Positions 1,442 to 6,671 of a stretch of 64,000 bases of DNA are shown piece after piece. The notes beneath the pieces were generated by a model. The model did not search any database. It saw nothing but the letters and a program-made list of their open reading frames with translations, and had not been told where the DNA came from. Numbering within the stretch: position 1 is the first letter of the stretch; every line of letters begins with the position of its first letter. The position numbers and the translations under genes are program-made. The stretch is from Escherichia coli (GTDB taxonomy: Bacteria; Pseudomonadota; Gammaproteobacteria; Enterobacterales; Enterobacteriaceae), in assembly GCF_045037415.1 (NCBI RefSeq), contig NZ_CP173438.1; one strand, given 5' to 3'.

Positions 1442-2266
1442 ATGATCATCGAAAAAGTCATGAACAATAATTGTGTACAGGCATCGATGAATGGACAGGA
1501 GGTTATCATTTCTGGGCCTGGCGTCGGTTACAACAAAAAATATGGAATGTCGGTCCCTGAGCATCCGGCTAACCGGATTTTTTATGTCAGAAATGAACAA
1601 AAAAACAAACTCTATAAATTGATTGAACATGTAGATATTGAGTATGTGTTTGTTGCCGAAAAAATAGTGCAATATGCGGAGAAAAATCTCGAAAAAAATC
1701 TCAATCCATCGCTACTATTGATTCTTGCGGATCACATTTCGAATGCAATATCCCGAGTCGCTTCAGGTATACAAATTAATAATGTTTTCCTTGATGAAAT
1801 CAAAGCGTTGTACAAAGCAGAGTATGCGATAAGTCGCGATGCATTAACTATCATTAATGAGCAATTCAGCGTTCAACTTCCTGATGATGAGATTGGTTTT
1901 ATAGCATTGCATATTTTAAATAATTATGAAAATTCAGTTGATTATGAATCAGTACGAATTATTGAGTTGTCGCAAATAATCACGGGGCTTATTGAAGTTG
2001 TTTATAACAGAAAGGTGGACAGAAGTTCATTTAACTATTCCAGATTTATGATGCACCTTAAATATTTTTCAAGTCGCGTGTTATGCAATGAAGAAATAAA
2101 ACAGAAAGATATTGGTGATATCTATGAACAGTTTCTTGAAAAGGACATCCTGTTACAGCGCGCAATTCATGAAATTGAACGGTATCTGTATGCCACTTTT
2201 AAATATGAATTAATTTTAGAAGAAAAACTATATCTCTCTATTCGTACCAAAGTATTAATGGACTAA
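1442..2266 (+). CDS. BglG/LicT-family transcription antiterminator (CAT RNA-binding domain plus PRD domains)
   Basis: ORF 1385..2266; the likely true start is the in-frame ATG at 1442 (MIIEK…) after GGAG at 1431-1434. The N-terminal CAT-like region and length of about 275 aa are typical of BglG/LicT. Confidence 0.75.
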   Translation: MIIEKVMNNNCVQASMNGQEVIISGPGVGYNKKYGMSVPEHPANRIFYVRNEQKNKLYKLIEHVDIEYVFVAEKIVQYAEKNLEKNLNPSLLLILADHISNAISRVASGIQINNVFLDEIKALYKAEYAISRDALTIINEQFSVQLPDDEIGFIALHILNNYENSVDYESVRIIELSQIITGLIEVVYNRKVDRSSFNYSRFMMHLKYFSSRVLCNEEIKQKDIGDIYEQFLEKDILLQRAIHEIERYLYATFKYELILEEKLYLSIRTKVLMD

Positions 2267-2297
2267 TTATATATAACATTTATATGAGATAACCCAC

Positions 2298-3878
2298 ATG
2301 AAACAAAAGAAAGCCTGGAGTTTTTTTCAGAGCCTGGGGAAGGCATTTATGTATCCCATTGCTCTGCTAAGTGTATGTGGCATGATGCTAGGGCTGGGAA
2401 GTGGTTTAGCCAGTGATGATATGGCAAAGTTAATTCCATTTCTGGCTATCCCAATAATTAAAACCATACTTGATTTCATTGTTAGTCTTGGTTTGTTTGC
2501 CTTTGTTAATTTACCTGTATTGTTTGCGATAGCGATTCCCTTAGGATTATTAAAAGATAAAGAGGATAAAGCCTATGGTGCTTTTTCTGGCTTAATTGGT
2601 TTTATGGCGATGCATCTGGGAACGAACTTTTATCTTAAACAGCACGACTTATTGGTCGTTGCTGACCAAATGTCGACACATGGGCAAACCATCATTCTGG
2701 GGATCCAGTCCTACAATACCAGCGTGTTGGGGGGAATTGTTGCTGGGTTATTAGTCGCCAGCATGTATAAAAAGATCGTTAATTTACGCATTCCTGAATC
2801 GTTAGGTTTTTATAGCGGCCCACGTCTGGTGCCTATCATTACACTGATTGTGATGAGTGGATTTGGTCTGATCATTCCTTTTATCTGGCCGCCGTTTTTC
2901 AATCTTTTCATGCTCATTGGACACTGGATTTCAACTTCCGGTCCTGTTGGTTATTTCTTCTATGCAGTTGCCGAACGCGTGACGATTCCTTTTGGCTTAA
3001 ACCATCTGGTGACGTCAGTTTTCCGCTTTACGCCAATCGGCGGTTCGGCTGTGATTGGCGGCGAAGAATATTACGGCACCCTGAACATGTTTATGGCGTA
3101 CGTCAAAGAGAATGCGGTCATTCCGCTGGATTTGGCGGGGAAAATGGAGCAGGGCAAACTGATGATTCAGTATGGTCTGGCTGGTGCCGCGCTGGCGATG
3201 TATCGCACTGCTCATGCTCAAAACAGAAAGGCTATCAAAGCATTGCTTATTTCCGGGGTGCTTACGGTGATTATTGGCGGCGTCAGCGAACCGATTGAGT
3301 TTCTGTTCTTATTTGTCAGTCCACTGCTGTTTGTCTTCCATGCCTTTATGAATGGATTCGCTAACATGGTTCTGCCATATATGGGCGTGAAGATGGGATT
3401 TACTGGCGATCTGATTCAATTTATTAGCTTTGGCGTATTGCGTGGCACAAGAACAGGTTGGCCGATCGCGGTGTGTGTCGAAGTGGCCTATTTCTTCATT
3501 TATTACTTTGTGTTCCGTTGGACCATTCTTAAATTTAACCTGATGACCGTAGGCCGTGAAGAGTCCAGTCCTGTCACGCTGAACGCTCACGAAGATACGG
3601 CTATAGCGGATATCCCAACTCCTGATAAATCAGAGCTGCAAGCGGCGGAGCAGATGGTTAAGGCACTTGGTGGTAAAGAGAATATTAAGTCACTGGATAA
3701 TTGCGTAACTCGTTTACGTTTAACAATCGCAGATATGGGATTGATTGACGAAGTTGCAATAAAAATAGCTGGCGGGATTGCGGTTGTTAAACTTGATCAA
3801 AATACCCTACAAGTCATTATCGGCACTAAAGTCATCGCCCTGCGTCGGGATATGGATAACTATATGGGGATATACTGA
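2298..3878 (+). CDS. PTS sugar transporter EIICB component (glucose/maltose-family topology, EIIB domain at the C-terminus)
   Basis: 526-aa polytopic membrane protein; the C-terminal domain contains the EIIB phosphocysteine motif NCVTRLRL. Confidence 0.8.
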   Translation: MKQKKAWSFFQSLGKAFMYPIALLSVCGMMLGLGSGLASDDMAKLIPFLAIPIIKTILDFIVSLGLFAFVNLPVLFAIAIPLGLLKDKEDKAYGAFSGLIGFMAMHLGTNFYLKQHDLLVVADQMSTHGQTIILGIQSYNTSVLGGIVAGLLVASMYKKIVNLRIPESLGFYSGPRLVPIITLIVMSGFGLIIPFIWPPFFNLFMLIGHWISTSGPVGYFFYAVAERVTIPFGLNHLVTSVFRFTPIGGSAVIGGEEYYGTLNMFMAYVKENAVIPLDLAGKMEQGKLMIQYGLAGAALAMYRTAHAQNRKAIKALLISGVLTVIIGGVSEPIEFLFLFVSPLLFVFHAFMNGFANMVLPYMGVKMGFTGDLIQFISFGVLRGTRTGWPIAVCVEVAYFFIYYFVFRWTILKFNLMTVGREESSPVTLNAHEDTAIADIPTPDKSELQAAEQMVKALGGKENIKSLDNCVTRLRLTIADMGLIDEVAIKIAGGIAVVKLDQNTLQVIIGTKVIALRRDMDNYMGIY

Positions 3879-5055: not shown

Positions 5056-5652
5056 ATGAATAACACGGATCTTATCCATCTCATTAAACATTTTATGCGT
5101 AACGAACATAAAGCAGTTGAAGAAGTTATTGATTCCCCTCTTTCGGAGGTCGCAAATTTAATTAAAGTATTACAATCTTGTCAGGGAAAAGTTGTTTTTA
5201 TTGGTGTTGGTAAGTCCGGTATTATTGCCAGGAAACTCGCCGCAACATTTGCCAGCACCGGAACTCCCTCGTTTTTTGTTCACGGTACGGAAGCTGTACA
5301 CGGCGACCTTGGAATGGTGGCGAAAGACGATGTTGTTATTCTTATTTCAAACAGTGGTGAGACGGCGGAAATCCTGGCGACACTGCCTAGTCTGAAAAAA
5401 ATGGGTAATTATTTGATCTCTTTTACCCGCAGTCACCACTCATCGCTTGCGATAAGTTGTGATTTATCTGTTGAAATCCCCGTCAAAAGTGAGGCGGATA
5501 ATTTAGGTTTAGCACCGTCATGCTCGTCGACTGTTGTTCTGGTTGTTGGTGATGCGGTGGCGCTTGCACTCTCTGAATTGAAAAAATTTACTCGTGCTGA
5601 TTTCGGCTTATATCATCCAGGAGGTGCACTCGGCATTAAAGCAAATTCATAA
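5056..5652 (+). CDS. SIS-domain sugar-phosphate isomerase (KdsD/GutQ-like SIS domain without CBS domains)
   Basis: 198 aa; the motif GVGKSGIIARKLAATFASTGTPSFFVHGTEAVHGDLGMV closely resembles the arabinose-5-phosphate isomerase SIS core. Confidence 0.75.
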   Translation: MNNTDLIHLIKHFMRNEHKAVEEVIDSPLSEVANLIKVLQSCQGKVVFIGVGKSGIIARKLAATFASTGTPSFFVHGTEAVHGDLGMVAKDDVVILISNSGETAEILATLPSLKKMGNYLISFTRSHHSSLAISCDLSVEIPVKSEADNLGLAPSCSSTVVLVVGDAVALALSELKKFTRADFGLYHPGGALGIKANS

Positions 5653-5714
5653 TTTCAAAATATAAATACAGTAACCGGTCACGCCATCTTTTGGGGTGGC
5701 GTTCTTTGAAGTGA

Positions 5715-6671
5715 GTGTCCGCTATGAAAAATGTTCTGGTCACCGTCCCCAGCTTTTCAGCACGCTGTGTTTCCGCCAGCAAGTTGCTAAGAGAGAATAA
5801 TTTTAATCTTATTATTAAGAATAATGTGGAGCATCTGCTTAAATCAGAATCCACTGCATTACGAGAATCTATTTGCGCGGTCATCGCCGGAAAAGATTGT
5901 TATCAGGCGGACACGCTATCATTGCTGTCTGGTGTGAAAATAATATCGAGATTCGGGACGGGGATAGACAATATTGATCTTCGTGCGGCACAGCAATCCG
6001 GTATTGTTGTCAATAATGCGGTTGGGATTAATTCAAATGCGGTTGCGGAATTTATCATTGGACTTATCTTCGCGAGCATGAGAAATATCCCTGGCAGCTA
6101 TCATGCGATGCAAAATGGCTACTGGGGTGAGTCGCATGGCTGTGAATTACAAGGGAAACGGATTGGCCTGGTTGGCTACGGTAATATAGGTAAAATTCTG
6201 GCGAAAAGGTTATCCGGTTTTGATGTTGAGCTTTTAGCTTTTGACAAACAACCCGACTATCAGGTTGCTGACAAAGCTGGAGTTCAGTTTGTATCAATTG
6301 AAGATATCTTTATGCAGTCGCATGCCATCATTGTTCTTTTGCCTTTTTCTTCTGAGCTGGAGAACTTCATTAGTCATAAATATTTGTCGATGATGCGCAA
6401 TGGTGCTCTGATCATCAATGCCGCAAGGGGAAAGTTGCTGGATGAGGGCGCTTTACTTCAGGTGATTGAAGAACGAAATGTGTTTGCGGCGCTGGATGTG
6501 TTTAGCTCTGAACCGTTGGCGCAATTTAGCCCACTGCTACATGCCAAAAATATCATTACAACGCCGCATATTGCGGCCGCCACCGTTGAGTCATACCAGC
6601 AAACCGGGATACACGTTGCCCAGTCGATAATTGATTACTTCGCAGGAAGGAAGATAAAAAACGTGTTGTGA
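5715..6671 (+). CDS. D-isomer-specific 2-hydroxyacid dehydrogenase family protein (NAD-binding)
   Basis: 318 aa; Rossmann motif GLVGYGNIGK and the overall pattern of phosphoglycerate/hydroxyacid dehydrogenases. Confidence 0.75.
   Translation: MSAMKNVLVTVPSFSARCVSASKLLRENNFNLIIKNNVEHLLKSESTALRESICAVIAGKDCYQADTLSLLSGVKIISRFGTGIDNIDLRAAQQSGIVVNNAVGINSNAVAEFIIGLIFASMRNIPGSYHAMQNGYWGESHGCELQGKRIGLVGYGNIGKILAKRLSGFDVELLAFDKQPDYQVADKAGVQFVSIEDIFMQSHAIIVLLPFSSELENFISHKYLSMMRNGALIINAARGKLLDEGALLQVIEERNVFAALDVFSSEPLAQFSPLLHAKNIITTPHIAAATVESYQQTGIHVAQSIIDYFAGRKIKNVL

What the first reader, a model, noticed from the sequence alone, without database searches (positions are those of the whole stretch)
1442..6671. 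Accessory PTS operon of unknown substrate (antiterminator, EIICB, MalY-like PLP enzyme, SIS isomerase, 2-hydroxyacid dehydrogenase)
The gene combination does not match a classic bgl, asc or mal system. A C-S lyase/aminotransferase together with a sugar-phosphate isomerase and a hydroxyacid dehydrogenase downstream of a PTS permease suggests catabolism of a modified sugar (for example an amino or glycated sugar derivative). No EIIA is encoded, so a shared EIIA such as Crr would be needed. The operon lies between amiC and the island repeat and is absent from this position in K-12 as I recall it.
Basis: inference. Interest (0 to 1): 0.5.

Follow-up and report, generated by a model that had tools for sequence, protein, structure and literature searches.

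The report
Known paf (c3405–c3410) PTS operon
This is a real, intact five-gene sugar-uptake operon, but it is the already described paf / c3405-c3410 locus of uropathogenic E. coli; its sugar is still unknown, and the same four-gene core also occurs in Clostridioides difficile.

Summary
Window 1442-6671 holds five co-directional genes: a BglG/LicT-type antiterminator, a glucose-family EIICB, a MalY/PatB PLP enzyme, a SIS-only arabinose-5-phosphate isomerase and a D-2-hydroxyacid dehydrogenase. A RAT-plus-terminator leader lies at 1358-1430.

It is not new. It is 99% identical to E. coli CFT073 3249590-3254819, the published c3405-c3410 / pafR-pafP locus of "PAI-metV". The SIS protein is 195/198 identical to PDB 5UQI. 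The operon is present in 1689 of 5426 complete E. coli genomes and absent from K-12.

What I add:
- The cassette lies outside the 41-bp direct repeats that bound the T6SS island, and some strains carry it without that island.
- The EIICB and PLP genes are paralogues of K-12 malX-malY (42% and 36% identity).
- The true orthologue is C. difficile CD3027-CD3031 (EIICB 68% identical), which ends in an EIIA(Glc) gene instead of the dehydrogenase.
- The conserved core is antiterminator, EIICB, lyase and isomerase.
- Related SIS-only isomerases in Gram-positives sit in catabolic clusters.

Most likely mechanism: substrate-gated antitermination, Crr-dependent uptake, and catabolism through arabinose-5-P to ribulose-5-P. 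The substrate remains unidentified.

The parts
1186..6723 (+). The paf cassette as a whole. This DNA is absent from K-12 between the amiC stop and the metV-flank repeat, and has low GC (33-46%).
   Evidence: K-12 homology ends at 1185 and resumes at 48618. GC profile. Strains O111:H8 8B and E597 carry amiC-cassette-metVWZ with no T6SS.
1330..1341 (+). Conserved block GTGTAnnGTATA upstream of the RAT. It may be the -10 region of the operon promoter (inference only).
   Evidence: These positions are invariant across E. coli, E. whittamii, Citrobacter and Atlantibacter leaders. The promoter scan gave no significant hit.
1358..1381 (+). RAT (ribonucleic antiterminator) hairpin CUUGUAACUGUUAAAUCAGGCAAG, the predicted binding site of the antiterminator.
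   Evidence: It is the only match to a RAT-like pattern in the 64 kb. It folds as a two-part hairpin. It is invariant across four genera, with a G-C to A-U compensatory pair in the Enterobacter variant. It shares TTGTAACTG...CAGGCAA with the C. difficile RATs.
1375..1430 (+). Intrinsic terminator in the leader: stem 1375-1384 pairs with 1413-1422, followed by a T run to 1430. Its 5' arm overlaps the RAT by 7 nt.
   Evidence: Fold energy is -30.1 kcal/mol, z = -3.9. There is a compensatory G-C to A-U change in Citrobacter. The leader occurs once per genome, and only in operon-bearing genomes.
1442..2266 (+). pafR (probably c3409): BglG/LicT-family PRD antiterminator, 274 aa.
   Evidence: NCBIfam LicT 226 bits and GlcT 178 bits, both full length but below the equivalog cut-offs. 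PDB matches to LicT and GlcT. His98, His157 and His205 align with the LicT phospho-histidines; the fourth position is Arg268. The protein is 270/274 identical to CFT073.
2298..3878 (+). pafP (probably c3408): glucose-family PTS EIICB, 526 aa, with no EIIA domain.
   Evidence: TIGR02004 malX scores 534 bits, below the 632 cut-off. Identity is 42% to K-12 MalX and 68% to C. difficile CD3030. Cys469 lies in NCVTRLR and the GVSEP motif is at 328.
3878..5053 (+). c3407-like MalY/PatB-family PLP-dependent enzyme (C-S beta-lyase fold), 391 aa.
   Evidence: TIGR04350 scores 363 bits, above the 340 cut-off. The best PDB matches are MalY 1D2F and C. difficile 4DGT. Identity is 36% to K-12 MalY and 49% to C. 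difficile MalY. The PLP-Lys motif S-I-S-K-T-F is at 228-233.
5056..5652 (+). c3406: single-SIS-domain arabinose-5-phosphate isomerase, 198 aa, with no CBS pair.
   Evidence: It is 195/198 identical to PDB 5UQI/5VHU, with the same three differences as against CFT073. It matches the KdsD/KpsF N-terminal part only. The published biochemistry is Mosberg 2011, whose citation appears.
5724..6671 (+). c3405-like NAD-dependent D-2-hydroxyacid dehydrogenase, 315 aa. It is an optional fifth gene of the cassette.
   Evidence: TIGR01327 PGDH scores 217 bits, below the 454 cut-off. The best PDB matches are short PGDHs, glyoxylate reductases and a 2-ketogluconate reductase. R235, D258, E263 and H282 are invariant. 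The gene is absent from the Enterobacter, C. difficile and Terrisporobacter cassettes.
6703..6731 (.). Hairpin AACCGCAAT...ATTGCGGTT, with an A run on one side. On the minus strand it reads as the terminator that follows metV in T6SS-free strains. It is probably a bidirectional end for the operon.
   Evidence: Read directly from the sequence. The simple terminator scan did not call it on the + strand.
6724..6764 (.). Left copy of the perfect 41-nt direct repeat (27 nt of metV 3' flank plus 14 nt of the tRNA-Met 3' end). The right copy is at 48594-48634. The repeats bound the T6SS island.

Best explanation
This is the paf / c3405-c3410 operon of extraintestinal pathogenic E. coli. It is a horizontally acquired, self-contained catabolic PTS cassette.

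Shown here:
- The transcript starts upstream of a leader in which a RAT hairpin (1358-1381) overlaps the 5' arm of an intrinsic terminator (1375-1430).
- The operon encodes the antiterminator PafR, the EIICB permease PafP, a MalY/PatB-type PLP enzyme, a SIS-only arabinose-5-phosphate isomerase, and a D-2-hydroxyacid dehydrogenase.

Inferred from the BglG/BglF and LicT paradigms:
- Without substrate, PafP passes its phosphoryl group to PafR PRD1 (His98/His157) and keeps PafR inactive, so transcription stops at the leader terminator.
- With substrate, PafP phosphorylates the incoming sugar instead. PafR dimerises, binds the RAT, prevents terminator formation, and the whole operon is read through, including pafR itself.
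- Because no EIIA is encoded, phosphoryl transfer runs EI, HPr, Crr (EIIA-Glc), then PafP Cys469.

Inferred from gene content and comparative context:
- The phosphorylated product is processed by the PLP enzyme. This could be beta-elimination or transamination of an amino-acid-like or sulfur-containing part of the molecule.
- The carbon skeleton is funnelled as D-arabinose-5-P to D-ribulose-5-P and into the pentose-phosphate pathway.
- The dehydrogenase is an accessory step that handles a 2-oxo/2-hydroxy-acid product, since related cassettes lack it.

The substrate is not identified.
For: Identity with the published locus:
- 99.05% nucleotide identity over 5786 nt to CFT073, with all five proteins 97-99% identical.
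- Bryant 2010 places c3405-c3410 ('PTS maltose/glucose') in PAI-CFT073-metV.
- pafR and pafP of the metV island are reported as needed for mouse UTI.
- The Mosberg 2011 citation on the island's arabinose-5-P isomerase appears, and the SIS protein equals PDB 5UQI.

Regulation:
- The RAT and terminator fold well.
- They are near-invariant across genera whose proteins are only 67-86% identical, with compensatory changes in both the RAT and the terminator.
- The leader is a single copy per genome.
- The PRD histidines are conserved.

PTS:
- The EIIC and EIIB motifs are present.
- No EIIA is found in the window.
- The Firmicute orthologues add a PTS_EIIA_1 gene.

Module conservation:
- The order antiterminator-EIICB-PLP enzyme-SIS recurs in E. 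coli, E. whittamii, Citrobacter, Atlantibacter, Enterobacter, C. difficile, Terrisporobacter and two metagenome contigs.

Catabolic role of SIS-only isomerases:
- Homologues at 52-60% identity occur in bacteria without Kdo.
- There they sit next to a GAT-type PTS with two aldolases, or next to a LacI regulator, PfkB kinase, MFS transporter and RbsD.
- In Terrisporobacter, transketolase and a phosphomutase follow the cassette.
Against: - No substrate, induction condition or enzyme product was or could be tested here.
- As I recall it, Baum 2014 reported no in-vitro expression from the paf promoter under many conditions.
- As I recall it, Mosberg 2011 reported that deleting c3406 alone did not reduce virulence.
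- Neither paper is held in the library, so both points rest on my memory.
- The chemical link between a C-S lyase-type enzyme and arabinose-5-P is not obvious.
- gutQ is a precedent for an arabinose-5-P isomerase inside a PTS operon whose role may be regulatory rather than catabolic.
- The covariation support is small: one compensatory pair in each helix, with 89 of 500 shuffles reaching the observed score.
Confidence: 0.75

Rival explanations
1. The locus is mainly a sensory and regulatory device. PafP senses a host signal, and PafR antiterminates other virulence, biofilm and motility transcripts elsewhere in the genome. The enzymes are secondary.
For: A review summarises that heterologous PafR expression changes virulence, biofilm and motility genes, and that pafRP and pafP mutants are attenuated in mouse bladder and kidney. 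The PRD2 position that aligns with LicT His269 is Arg in the E. coli, Citrobacter and Atlantibacter clade, which suggests altered control.
Against: The only RAT-like site in the 64-kb window is the operon's own leader. The only close copy of the leader in 5426 genomes is also the operon's own. The three enzymes are co-conserved with the regulator and permease across phyla and under different genomic contexts, which is expected of a pathway. Overexpression effects can be indirect. BLAST cannot find diverged RATs, so trans targets are not excluded.
Confidence: 0.12
2. The isomerase is anabolic. The operon supplies arabinose-5-P for Kdo, LPS or capsule synthesis during infection, rather than degrading a sugar.
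For: The SIS protein belongs to the KdsD/KpsF/GutQ family. As I recall, the published enzyme can interconvert Ru5P and A5P.
Against: The same module occurs in C. difficile and Terrisporobacter, and SIS-only homologues occur in lactobacilli and staphylococci-like bacteria, all of which lack Kdo. E. coli already has KdsD and GutQ (established knowledge). The gene lies in a PTS operon under substrate-type control.
Confidence: 0.05
3. It is a divergent maltose/glucose system equivalent to malX-malY. The PLP protein acts as a regulator, as MalY does on MalT, and not as a pathway enzyme.
For: The best family hits are malX and MalY. Bryant 2010 labelled the locus 'PTS maltose/glucose specific'.
Against: The EIICB scores below the MalX cut-offs and is only 42% identical to MalX, and the PLP protein is 36% identical to MalY. 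Both are much closer to the C. difficile operon proteins (68% and 49%). No glucosidase or phosphatase for maltose-6'-P is present. The constant linkage to the isomerase, and occasional lyase-isomerase fusions in E. coli, argue for an enzymatic role.
Confidence: 0.08

Closest known systems
E. coli CFT073 c3405-c3410 / pafR-pafP locus of 'PAI-metV' (Lloyd 2009; Bryant 2010; Mosberg 2011; Baum 2014)
   Same: It is the same locus: same position next to amiC, 99% nucleotide identity and the same five genes. The isomerase corresponds to PDB 5UQI.
   Different: There are only allelic differences, 3-10 residues per protein. In this window the adjoining T6SS island is larger, about 42 kb with three vgrG genes.
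Clostridioides difficile CD3027-CD3031 (antiterminator, malX, malY, phosphosugar isomerase, EIIA-Glc)
   Same: The first four genes have the same order and families. Identities are EIICB 68%, PLP enzyme 49%, SIS 52% and antiterminator 38%. Control is RAT-based. The substrate is likewise unknown. It lies in a variable genome region.
   Different: The fifth gene is an EIIA(Glc) instead of a 2-hydroxyacid dehydrogenase. Four tandem RAT-terminator units lie between the antiterminator and malX, rather than one upstream of the antiterminator.
E. coli K-12 malI-malX-malY
   Same: It has a MalX-type EIICB followed directly by a MalY-type PLP enzyme, with no EIIA (Crr-dependent). The physiological substrate is also unclear.
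   Different: Identities are only 42% and 36%. It is regulated by the LacI-type repressor MalI, not by antitermination, and has no isomerase or dehydrogenase.
bgl operon (BglG/BglF) of E. coli and LicT or GlcT-PtsG of Bacillus subtilis
   Same: The regulatory logic matches: a CAT-PRD1-PRD2 antiterminator, a RAT overlapping a terminator, and a cognate EII as the negative sensor. As in bgl, the antiterminator gene is first and lies behind the leader terminator.
   Different: The permease belongs to the MalX branch, not the beta-glucoside branch. No phospho-glycosidase is present. There is one terminator rather than two. The PRD2 position that aligns with LicT His269 is Arg.
gutQ in the glucitol PTS operon (srlAEBDMRQ) of E. 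coli
   Same: It is an arabinose-5-phosphate isomerase gene embedded in a PTS operon, with an unsettled role (established knowledge; Meredith and Woodard 2005, from memory).
   Different: GutQ carries the CBS pair, whereas this protein is SIS-only. The transporter family and the companion enzymes differ.

Membership tests
BglG/SacY/LicT PRD antiterminators | N-terminal CAT RNA-binding domain followed by two PRDs | tested here: met
   There are full-length matches to the LicT and GlcT models (residues 1-268). Citrobacter, Enterobacter and C. difficile orthologues carry Pfam CAT_RBD + PRD. PDB matches cover the LicT PRDs and the GlcT and LicT CAT-PRD1 region.
BglG/SacY/LicT PRD antiterminators | Conserved phosphorylatable histidines in PRD1 and PRD2 | tested here: inconclusive
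   His98, His157 and His205 align with the LicT histidines in DHINF, ALHIV and THLKF. The fourth position (LicT LTIHI) is Arg268 here and in Citrobacter and Atlantibacter, but His in the Enterobacter variant.
BglG/SacY/LicT PRD antiterminators | Cognate RAT RNA that overlaps an intrinsic terminator | tested here: met
   The RAT at 1358-1381 overlaps the terminator arm at 1375-1384. Both are conserved and show compensatory changes. Rfam has no family matching it.
BglG/SacY/LicT PRD antiterminators | Demonstrated antitermination activity | not testable with these tools
   I recall this being reported for PafR by Baum 2014. The paper is not held, and only a review summary was read.
PTS glucose-family EIICB | EIIC domain with the [GIV][ST]EP motif plus an EIIB domain with the phospho-cysteine | tested here: met
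   The protein matches TIGR00852 and TIGR00826. GVSEP is at residue 328 and Cys469 lies in NCVTRLR. PtsG structures are the best PDB matches.
MalX (TIGR02004 / PRK10110) equivalog | Score above the curated cut-off | tested here: not met
   Scores are 534 bits against a cut-off of 632, and 522 against 665. Identity to K-12 MalX is 42%. It is a paralogue, not MalX.
PatB/MalY C-S lyase family (TIGR04350) | Score above the cut-off and presence of the PLP-binding lysine | tested here: met
   The score is 363 bits against a cut-off of 340. The SISKTF motif is present. It aligns end to end with MalY.
PatB/MalY C-S lyase family (TIGR04350) | Beta C-S lyase activity | not testable with these tools
The C. 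difficile orthologue is reported to have cysteine desulfhydrase activity in vitro (quoted in PMC6143707).
KpsF/GutQ/KdsD arabinose-5-phosphate isomerases | SIS catalytic domain of the KpsF type | tested here: met
   Matches to KdsD (197 bits) and kpsF (192 bits) cover the SIS part only. The protein is 195/198 identical to PDB 5UQI, 'phosphosugar isomerase'.
KpsF/GutQ/KdsD arabinose-5-phosphate isomerases | C-terminal tandem CBS domains | tested here: not met
   The protein ends at residue 198, and the matches stop at profile positions 152-201 of 268-328. It is a single-domain variant, as published for c3406.
KpsF/GutQ/KdsD arabinose-5-phosphate isomerases | A5P/Ru5P isomerase activity | not testable with these tools
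   This was published for CFT073 c3406 (Mosberg 2011; the title and citation appear, and the paper is not held). The protein here differs at 3 of 198 residues.
D-isomer-specific 2-hydroxyacid dehydrogenases | Two-domain fold, a Rossmann glycine motif and the catalytic Arg/Glu/His | tested here: met
   Pfam 2-Hacid_dh and 2-Hacid_dh_C are assigned to this protein and its orthologues. G151, G153, R235, D258, E263 and H282 are invariant.
SerA-type 3-phosphoglycerate dehydrogenase (TIGR01327) | Score above the curated cut-off | tested here: not met
   The score is 217 bits against a cut-off of 454, so the RefSeq name 'phosphoglycerate dehydrogenase' is a family label only. The nearest non-cassette relatives lie beside DHDPS-type aldolases and sugar-acid transporters.
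PAI-metV (tRNA-associated island) | Lies within the DNA bounded by the tRNA-derived direct repeats | tested here: not met
   The 41-nt repeats are at 6724-6764 and 48594-48634, and the operon (1186-6723) is outside them. It occurs without the T6SS island in O111:H8 and E597. It is still part of the K-12-absent segment that the literature calls PAI-metV.

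The most novel reading that the evidence does not exclude
The four-gene core (antiterminator, MalX-like EIICB, MalY/PatB PLP enzyme, SIS-only arabinose-5-P isomerase) is shared by extraintestinal pathogenic E. coli and C. difficile. It may encode an undescribed catabolic pathway for a host- or diet-derived sugar that carries an amino-acid-like or sulfur-linked group. In that pathway the PLP enzyme would act on the phosphorylated PTS product, and the carbon would leave as arabinose-5-P. The same chemistry might also explain the long-unknown physiological substrate of K-12 MalX-MalY.
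Probability: 0.25. Interest if true: 0.6.

Novelty: already known. Interest (0 to 1): 0.25.

Why it matters
The locus is one of the few metabolic gene sets reported to affect E. coli fitness in the mouse urinary tract. I find it in 31% of complete E. coli genomes, including ST131-like strains. Its orthologue in C. difficile is strongly regulated in vivo and in biofilms.

Finding the substrate would name a nutrient or signal used by two major pathogens. It could also clarify the old malX-malY puzzle.

For this scan, the practical value is small. The finding is correct but already described, so it should not be counted as a discovery. The comparative points below narrow the search for the substrate:
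- The cassette is independent of the T6SS island.
- There is a cross-phylum four-gene core.
- The dehydrogenase is optional, and an EIIA takes its place in Firmicutes.

Tried and rejected
- **Rfam.** A scan of 1-7200 at E <= 1 found nothing. RAT elements are not modelled there, so this says nothing against the RAT.
- **Consensus scans.** The promoter and terminator scans gave no more hits than shuffles, and missed the leader terminator because its loop is long.
- **Key papers.** Mosberg 2011, Lloyd 2009 and Baum 2014 are not held. Details from them are marked as recollection.
- **Locus-tag searches.** Searches for c3405-c3410 found only Bryant 2010.
- **Dehydrogenase neighbourhoods as a route to the substrate.** Relatives at 38-41% identity sit next to DHDPS/NanA-type aldolases with TRAP or ABC transporters. 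At that distance, and because related cassettes lack the gene, I do not transfer a function.
- **Lyase-isomerase fusions as Rosetta-stone evidence.** Fused proteins of 564-592 aa exist in some E. coli. They arise from a frameshift at the overlap or from a short deletion, so they are only weak evidence of coupling.
- **MurNAc-type pathway.** I considered this because of the SIS protein, a D-lactate-type dehydrogenase and the amiC neighbour. I rejected it because the SIS protein is KpsF-type with only a marginal etherase match, and because the amiC adjacency is not conserved in other genera.
- **Second RAT target.** None was found in the window, and no second leader copy was found in any E. coli genome.

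Full report
**1. The observation**

Window 1442-6671 carries five ORFs on the + strand:
- 1442-2266, 274 aa
- 2298-3878, 526 aa
- 3878-5053, 391 aa
- 5056-5652, 198 aa
- 5724-6671, 315 aa

They are tightly packed, with spacers of 31, -1, 2 and 71 nt. An identical RefSeq genome annotates the same five genes. Its product names are PRD domain-containing protein, PTS transporter subunit EIIC, MalY/PatB family protein, KpsF/GutQ family sugar-phosphate isomerase and phosphoglycerate dehydrogenase.

Curated family models agree.
- **Antiterminator.** LicT scores 226 bits and GlcT 178 bits. Both matches are full length but below the equivalog cut-offs.
- **EIICB.** The malX model scores 534 bits against a cut-off of 632.
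- **PLP enzyme.** The PatB C-S lyase model scores 363 bits, above the cut-off of 340.
- **Isomerase.** The KdsD and KpsF models match over the SIS domain only.
- **Dehydrogenase.** It belongs to the D-2-hydroxyacid dehydrogenase family, with the PGDH model at 217 bits against a cut-off of 454.

Diagnostic motifs are present:
- EIIB Cys469 in NCVTRLR
- EIIC motif GVSEP
- PLP-lysine motif SISKTF
- Dehydrogenase residues R235, D258, E263 and H282, invariant among orthologues

**2. The leader**

Upstream of the first gene lies CUUGUAACUGUUAAAUCAGGCAAG (1358-1381). It folds into a two-part hairpin. It shares the TTGTAACTG...CAGGCAA signature with the textbook RATs and with the clostridial ones found here.

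Its 3' half is also the 5' arm of a long hairpin. The stem 1375-1384 pairs with 1413-1422 and is followed by a T run to 1430. The fold energy is -30.1 kcal/mol with z = -3.9. This is the classic pair of mutually exclusive RAT and terminator structures.

The ATG at 1385 lies in the terminator loop, so the antiterminator starts at ATG 1442, behind a GGAG.

Conservation supports function.
- Across E. coli, E. whittamii, three Citrobacter species and Atlantibacter the RAT is nearly invariant, although the proteins are only 67-86% identical.
- The terminator stem shows a G-C to A-U compensatory change.
- In the Enterobacter variant and in metagenome variant L081 the RAT's upper stem changes CUG/CAG to CUA/UAG.
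- The statistics are weak, with one compensatory pair per helix and 89 of 500 shuffles reaching the observed score. The picture is nevertheless coherent.

The leader is the only RAT-like site in the 64 kb. It occurs exactly once, and only in the 1688 genomes that carry the operon. There it is at least 95% identical, although the operon as a whole falls to 92%.

**3. It is a published locus**

The region is 99.05% identical over 5786 nt to E. coli CFT073 3249590-3254819. The five proteins are 97-99% identical.

- Bryant et al. 2010 (PMC2831201) list c3405-c3410 as 'PTS system, maltose/glucose specific'. They place it inside PAI-CFT073-metV, present in the four UPEC genomes, E2348 and SMS-3-5.
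- A 2022 review (PMC8882828) summarises Baum et al. [quoted passage not shown]
- Mosberg et al. [quoted passage not shown] Its citation appears.
- The SIS protein is 195/198 identical to PDB 5UQI/5VHU. The three differences are the same three that separate it from CFT073, so that structure is c3406.

The primary papers are not held. From memory only:
- Lloyd 2009 showed that a c3405-c3410 deletion is outcompeted in mice.
- Mosberg 2011 showed isomerase activity for c3406, and that deleting c3406 alone has no virulence defect.
- Baum 2014 showed that PafR can antiterminate, but found no in-vitro inducing condition.

No paper that I could find names the substrate.

**4. Genomic setting**

K-12 has 73 bp between metV and the amiC stop. 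Here 47.4 kb (1186-48617) lie between them.

A perfect 41-nt direct repeat occurs at 6724-6764 and again at 48594-48634. It consists of 27 nt of metV 3' flank plus 14 nt of the tRNA 3' end. The T6SS island is the repeat-bounded element. The paf cassette (1186-6723) lies outside it.

Three further observations agree with this.
- The cassette has 33-46% GC, against 51-59% on both sides.
- O111:H8 strain 8B and strain E597 have amiC-paf-metVWZ-mltA with no T6SS.
- 1689 of 5426 complete genomes carry the operon, but only 1082 carry it joined to this T6SS end.

So 'PAI-metV' is two separate acquisitions.

**5. Comparative anatomy**

- The five-gene cassette is intact in E. whittamii, Citrobacter species and Atlantibacter hermannii. 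In Citrobacter it sits at a different chromosomal site, between an LTXXQ gene and rnt. It also occurs on two divergent metagenome contigs.
- An Enterobacter lineage has only four genes. Their identities to the proteins here are antiterminator 44%, EIICB 76%, PLP enzyme 49% and SIS 66%. A terminator follows directly after the SIS gene, and there is no dehydrogenase.
- The closest non-enterobacterial relatives of the PLP enzyme are in C. difficile and Terrisporobacter.
- There the operon reads antiterminator, EIICB, PLP enzyme, SIS, EIIA(Glc).
- C. difficile identities are EIICB 68%, PLP enzyme 49%, SIS 52% and antiterminator 38%. These are far higher than to E. coli's own MalX (42%) and MalY (36%).
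- This is C. difficile CD3027-CD3031, annotated malX and malY. [quoted passage not shown] The operon lies in a variable region.
- In C. difficile four tandem RAT-terminator units precede malX.

The invariant core is therefore antiterminator, EIICB, PLP enzyme and SIS isomerase. The fifth gene is an EIIA in Firmicutes and a dehydrogenase in most enterobacteria. The low GC of the E. coli cassette fits an origin in a low-GC organism.

**6. What the isomerase context says**

SIS-only homologues at 52-60% identity are common in Gram-positives that make no Kdo.
- In Companilactobacillus and Lactiplantibacillus the gene faces a GAT-type PTS with a DHDPS-family aldolase and a KDPG-type aldolase.
- In Mammaliicoccus lentus it sits in a cluster with LacI, a PfkB kinase, an MFS transporter and RbsD. 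That looks like uptake, phosphorylation and isomerisation of D-arabinose.
- In Terrisporobacter the cassette is followed by split transketolase genes and a phosphomutase.

These contexts support a catabolic role. Arabinose-5-P would be produced and passed on as ribulose-5-P.

**7. Mechanism**

Shown here:
- the parts list
- the RAT and terminator architecture
- the lack of an EIIA
- the conservation of the core

Inferred from the BglG/BglF and LicT paradigms:
- PafP phosphorylates PafR PRD1 when idle, which keeps PafR inactive.
- Substrate transport relieves this. PafR then binds the RAT and the operon, including pafR, is read through.
- PRD2 keeps only one of the two histidines that align with LicT's (His205). 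The other position is Arg268, whereas the Enterobacter variant has His there. HPr-dependent control may therefore be simplified.
- Phosphoryl flow runs through Crr. No EIIA(Glc) homologue exists in the window, and the Firmicute operons carry one that is 41% identical to my Crr probe.

Inferred from gene content:
- The PLP enzyme acts on the phosphorylated product.
- The skeleton leaves via arabinose-5-P.
- The dehydrogenase deals with a 2-oxo/2-hydroxy-acid product and is dispensable.

Candidate substrate classes, all speculative:
- compounds containing or yielding D-arabinose
- S- or O-glycosyl amino acids cleaved by beta-elimination
- 2-amino-2-deoxy-aldonates

**8. Rivals**

- **A mainly regulatory device with trans targets.** This is the view of Baum et al. 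It is weakened by the single RAT and by cross-phylum co-conservation of the enzymes, but it is not excluded.
- **An anabolic supply of arabinose-5-P.** This is unlikely, given the Gram-positive orthologues.
- **A plain maltose/glucose system with a regulatory MalY.** This is contradicted by the sub-threshold family scores, the low identity to MalX and MalY, and the constant linkage to the isomerase.

**9. Verdict**

The locus is already known, however, and one of its enzymes has been characterised biochemically and structurally. The open question is the substrate, and it stays open.

The comparative results here narrow that question:
- The cassette is independent of the T6SS island.
- The orthologous C. 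difficile operon has been identified.
- The core is four genes, with an interchangeable fifth.

Noticed in passing
window 6724-6764 and 48594-48634: A perfect 41-nt direct repeat, made of the metV 3' flank plus 14 nt of the tRNA 3' end, bounds a ~41.9-kb T6SS island. The paf operon lies outside it, so the published 'PAI-metV' is a composite of two insertions.
   Followed up: yes
window 24545-27058, 30424-32802 and 36494-38830 (all - strand): The T6SS island holds three VgrG paralogues, 778-837 aa, with 300-nt blocks 83-96% identical. Each is followed by different large ORFs with no NCBIfam match, presumably effector and immunity cargo. CFT073 has a single vgrG here.
   Followed up: partly
L079 5999-6420 (C. 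difficile, between CD3031 and malX): Four tandem copies (~104-nt period) of a canonical RAT plus terminator unit precede the EIICB gene. This is an unusual multiplication of the antitermination checkpoint. Terrisporobacter has two units, one upstream of the antiterminator gene and one between it and the EIICB gene.
   Followed up: partly
Proteins P0244 and P0249 (E. coli 2534-86 and others); compare L077 5495-7268: In some E. coli of the 85%-identity allele group the PLP enzyme and the SIS isomerase are fused into one 564-592-aa protein, by a frameshift at the gene overlap or by a short in-frame deletion. In the O111:H8 lineage the two genes overlap by 32 nt.
   Followed up: partly
window 2243-2245 (PafR residue 268): The PRD2 position that aligns with LicT His269 is Arg in E. 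coli, Citrobacter and Atlantibacter PafR, but His in the Enterobacter variant. This hints at a changed HPr-dependent activation.
   Followed up: partly
window 5672-5700: A short hairpin (ACGCCA...TGGCGT followed by TCTTT) lies in the 71-nt spacer between the isomerase and dehydrogenase genes. This is the position where the four-gene Enterobacter cassette ends with a terminator. It may be a remnant or a partial attenuator.
   Followed up: no
hits H1/H21, NZ_CP107162.1 (E. coli R10): An otherwise identical strain has an IS1A insertion inside the operon, seen as two BLAST pieces and an annotated IS1 transposase. The operon is therefore dispensable in at least some clinical isolates.
   Followed up: no
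L075 6354-10854 (Mammaliicoccus lentus): A cluster of RbsD/FucU mutarotase, LacI regulator, SIS-only isomerase, PfkB kinase and MFS transporter looks like an undescribed D-arabinose route (kinase to arabinose-5-P, then isomerase to ribulose-5-P) in a Gram-positive.
   Followed up: no
window 1257-1272: TGTGACTGATGTCGGA upstream of the leader resembles a half-conserved CRP site. The region is AT-rich and is likely to be H-NS-silenced, which might explain the reported lack of in-vitro expression.
   Followed up: no
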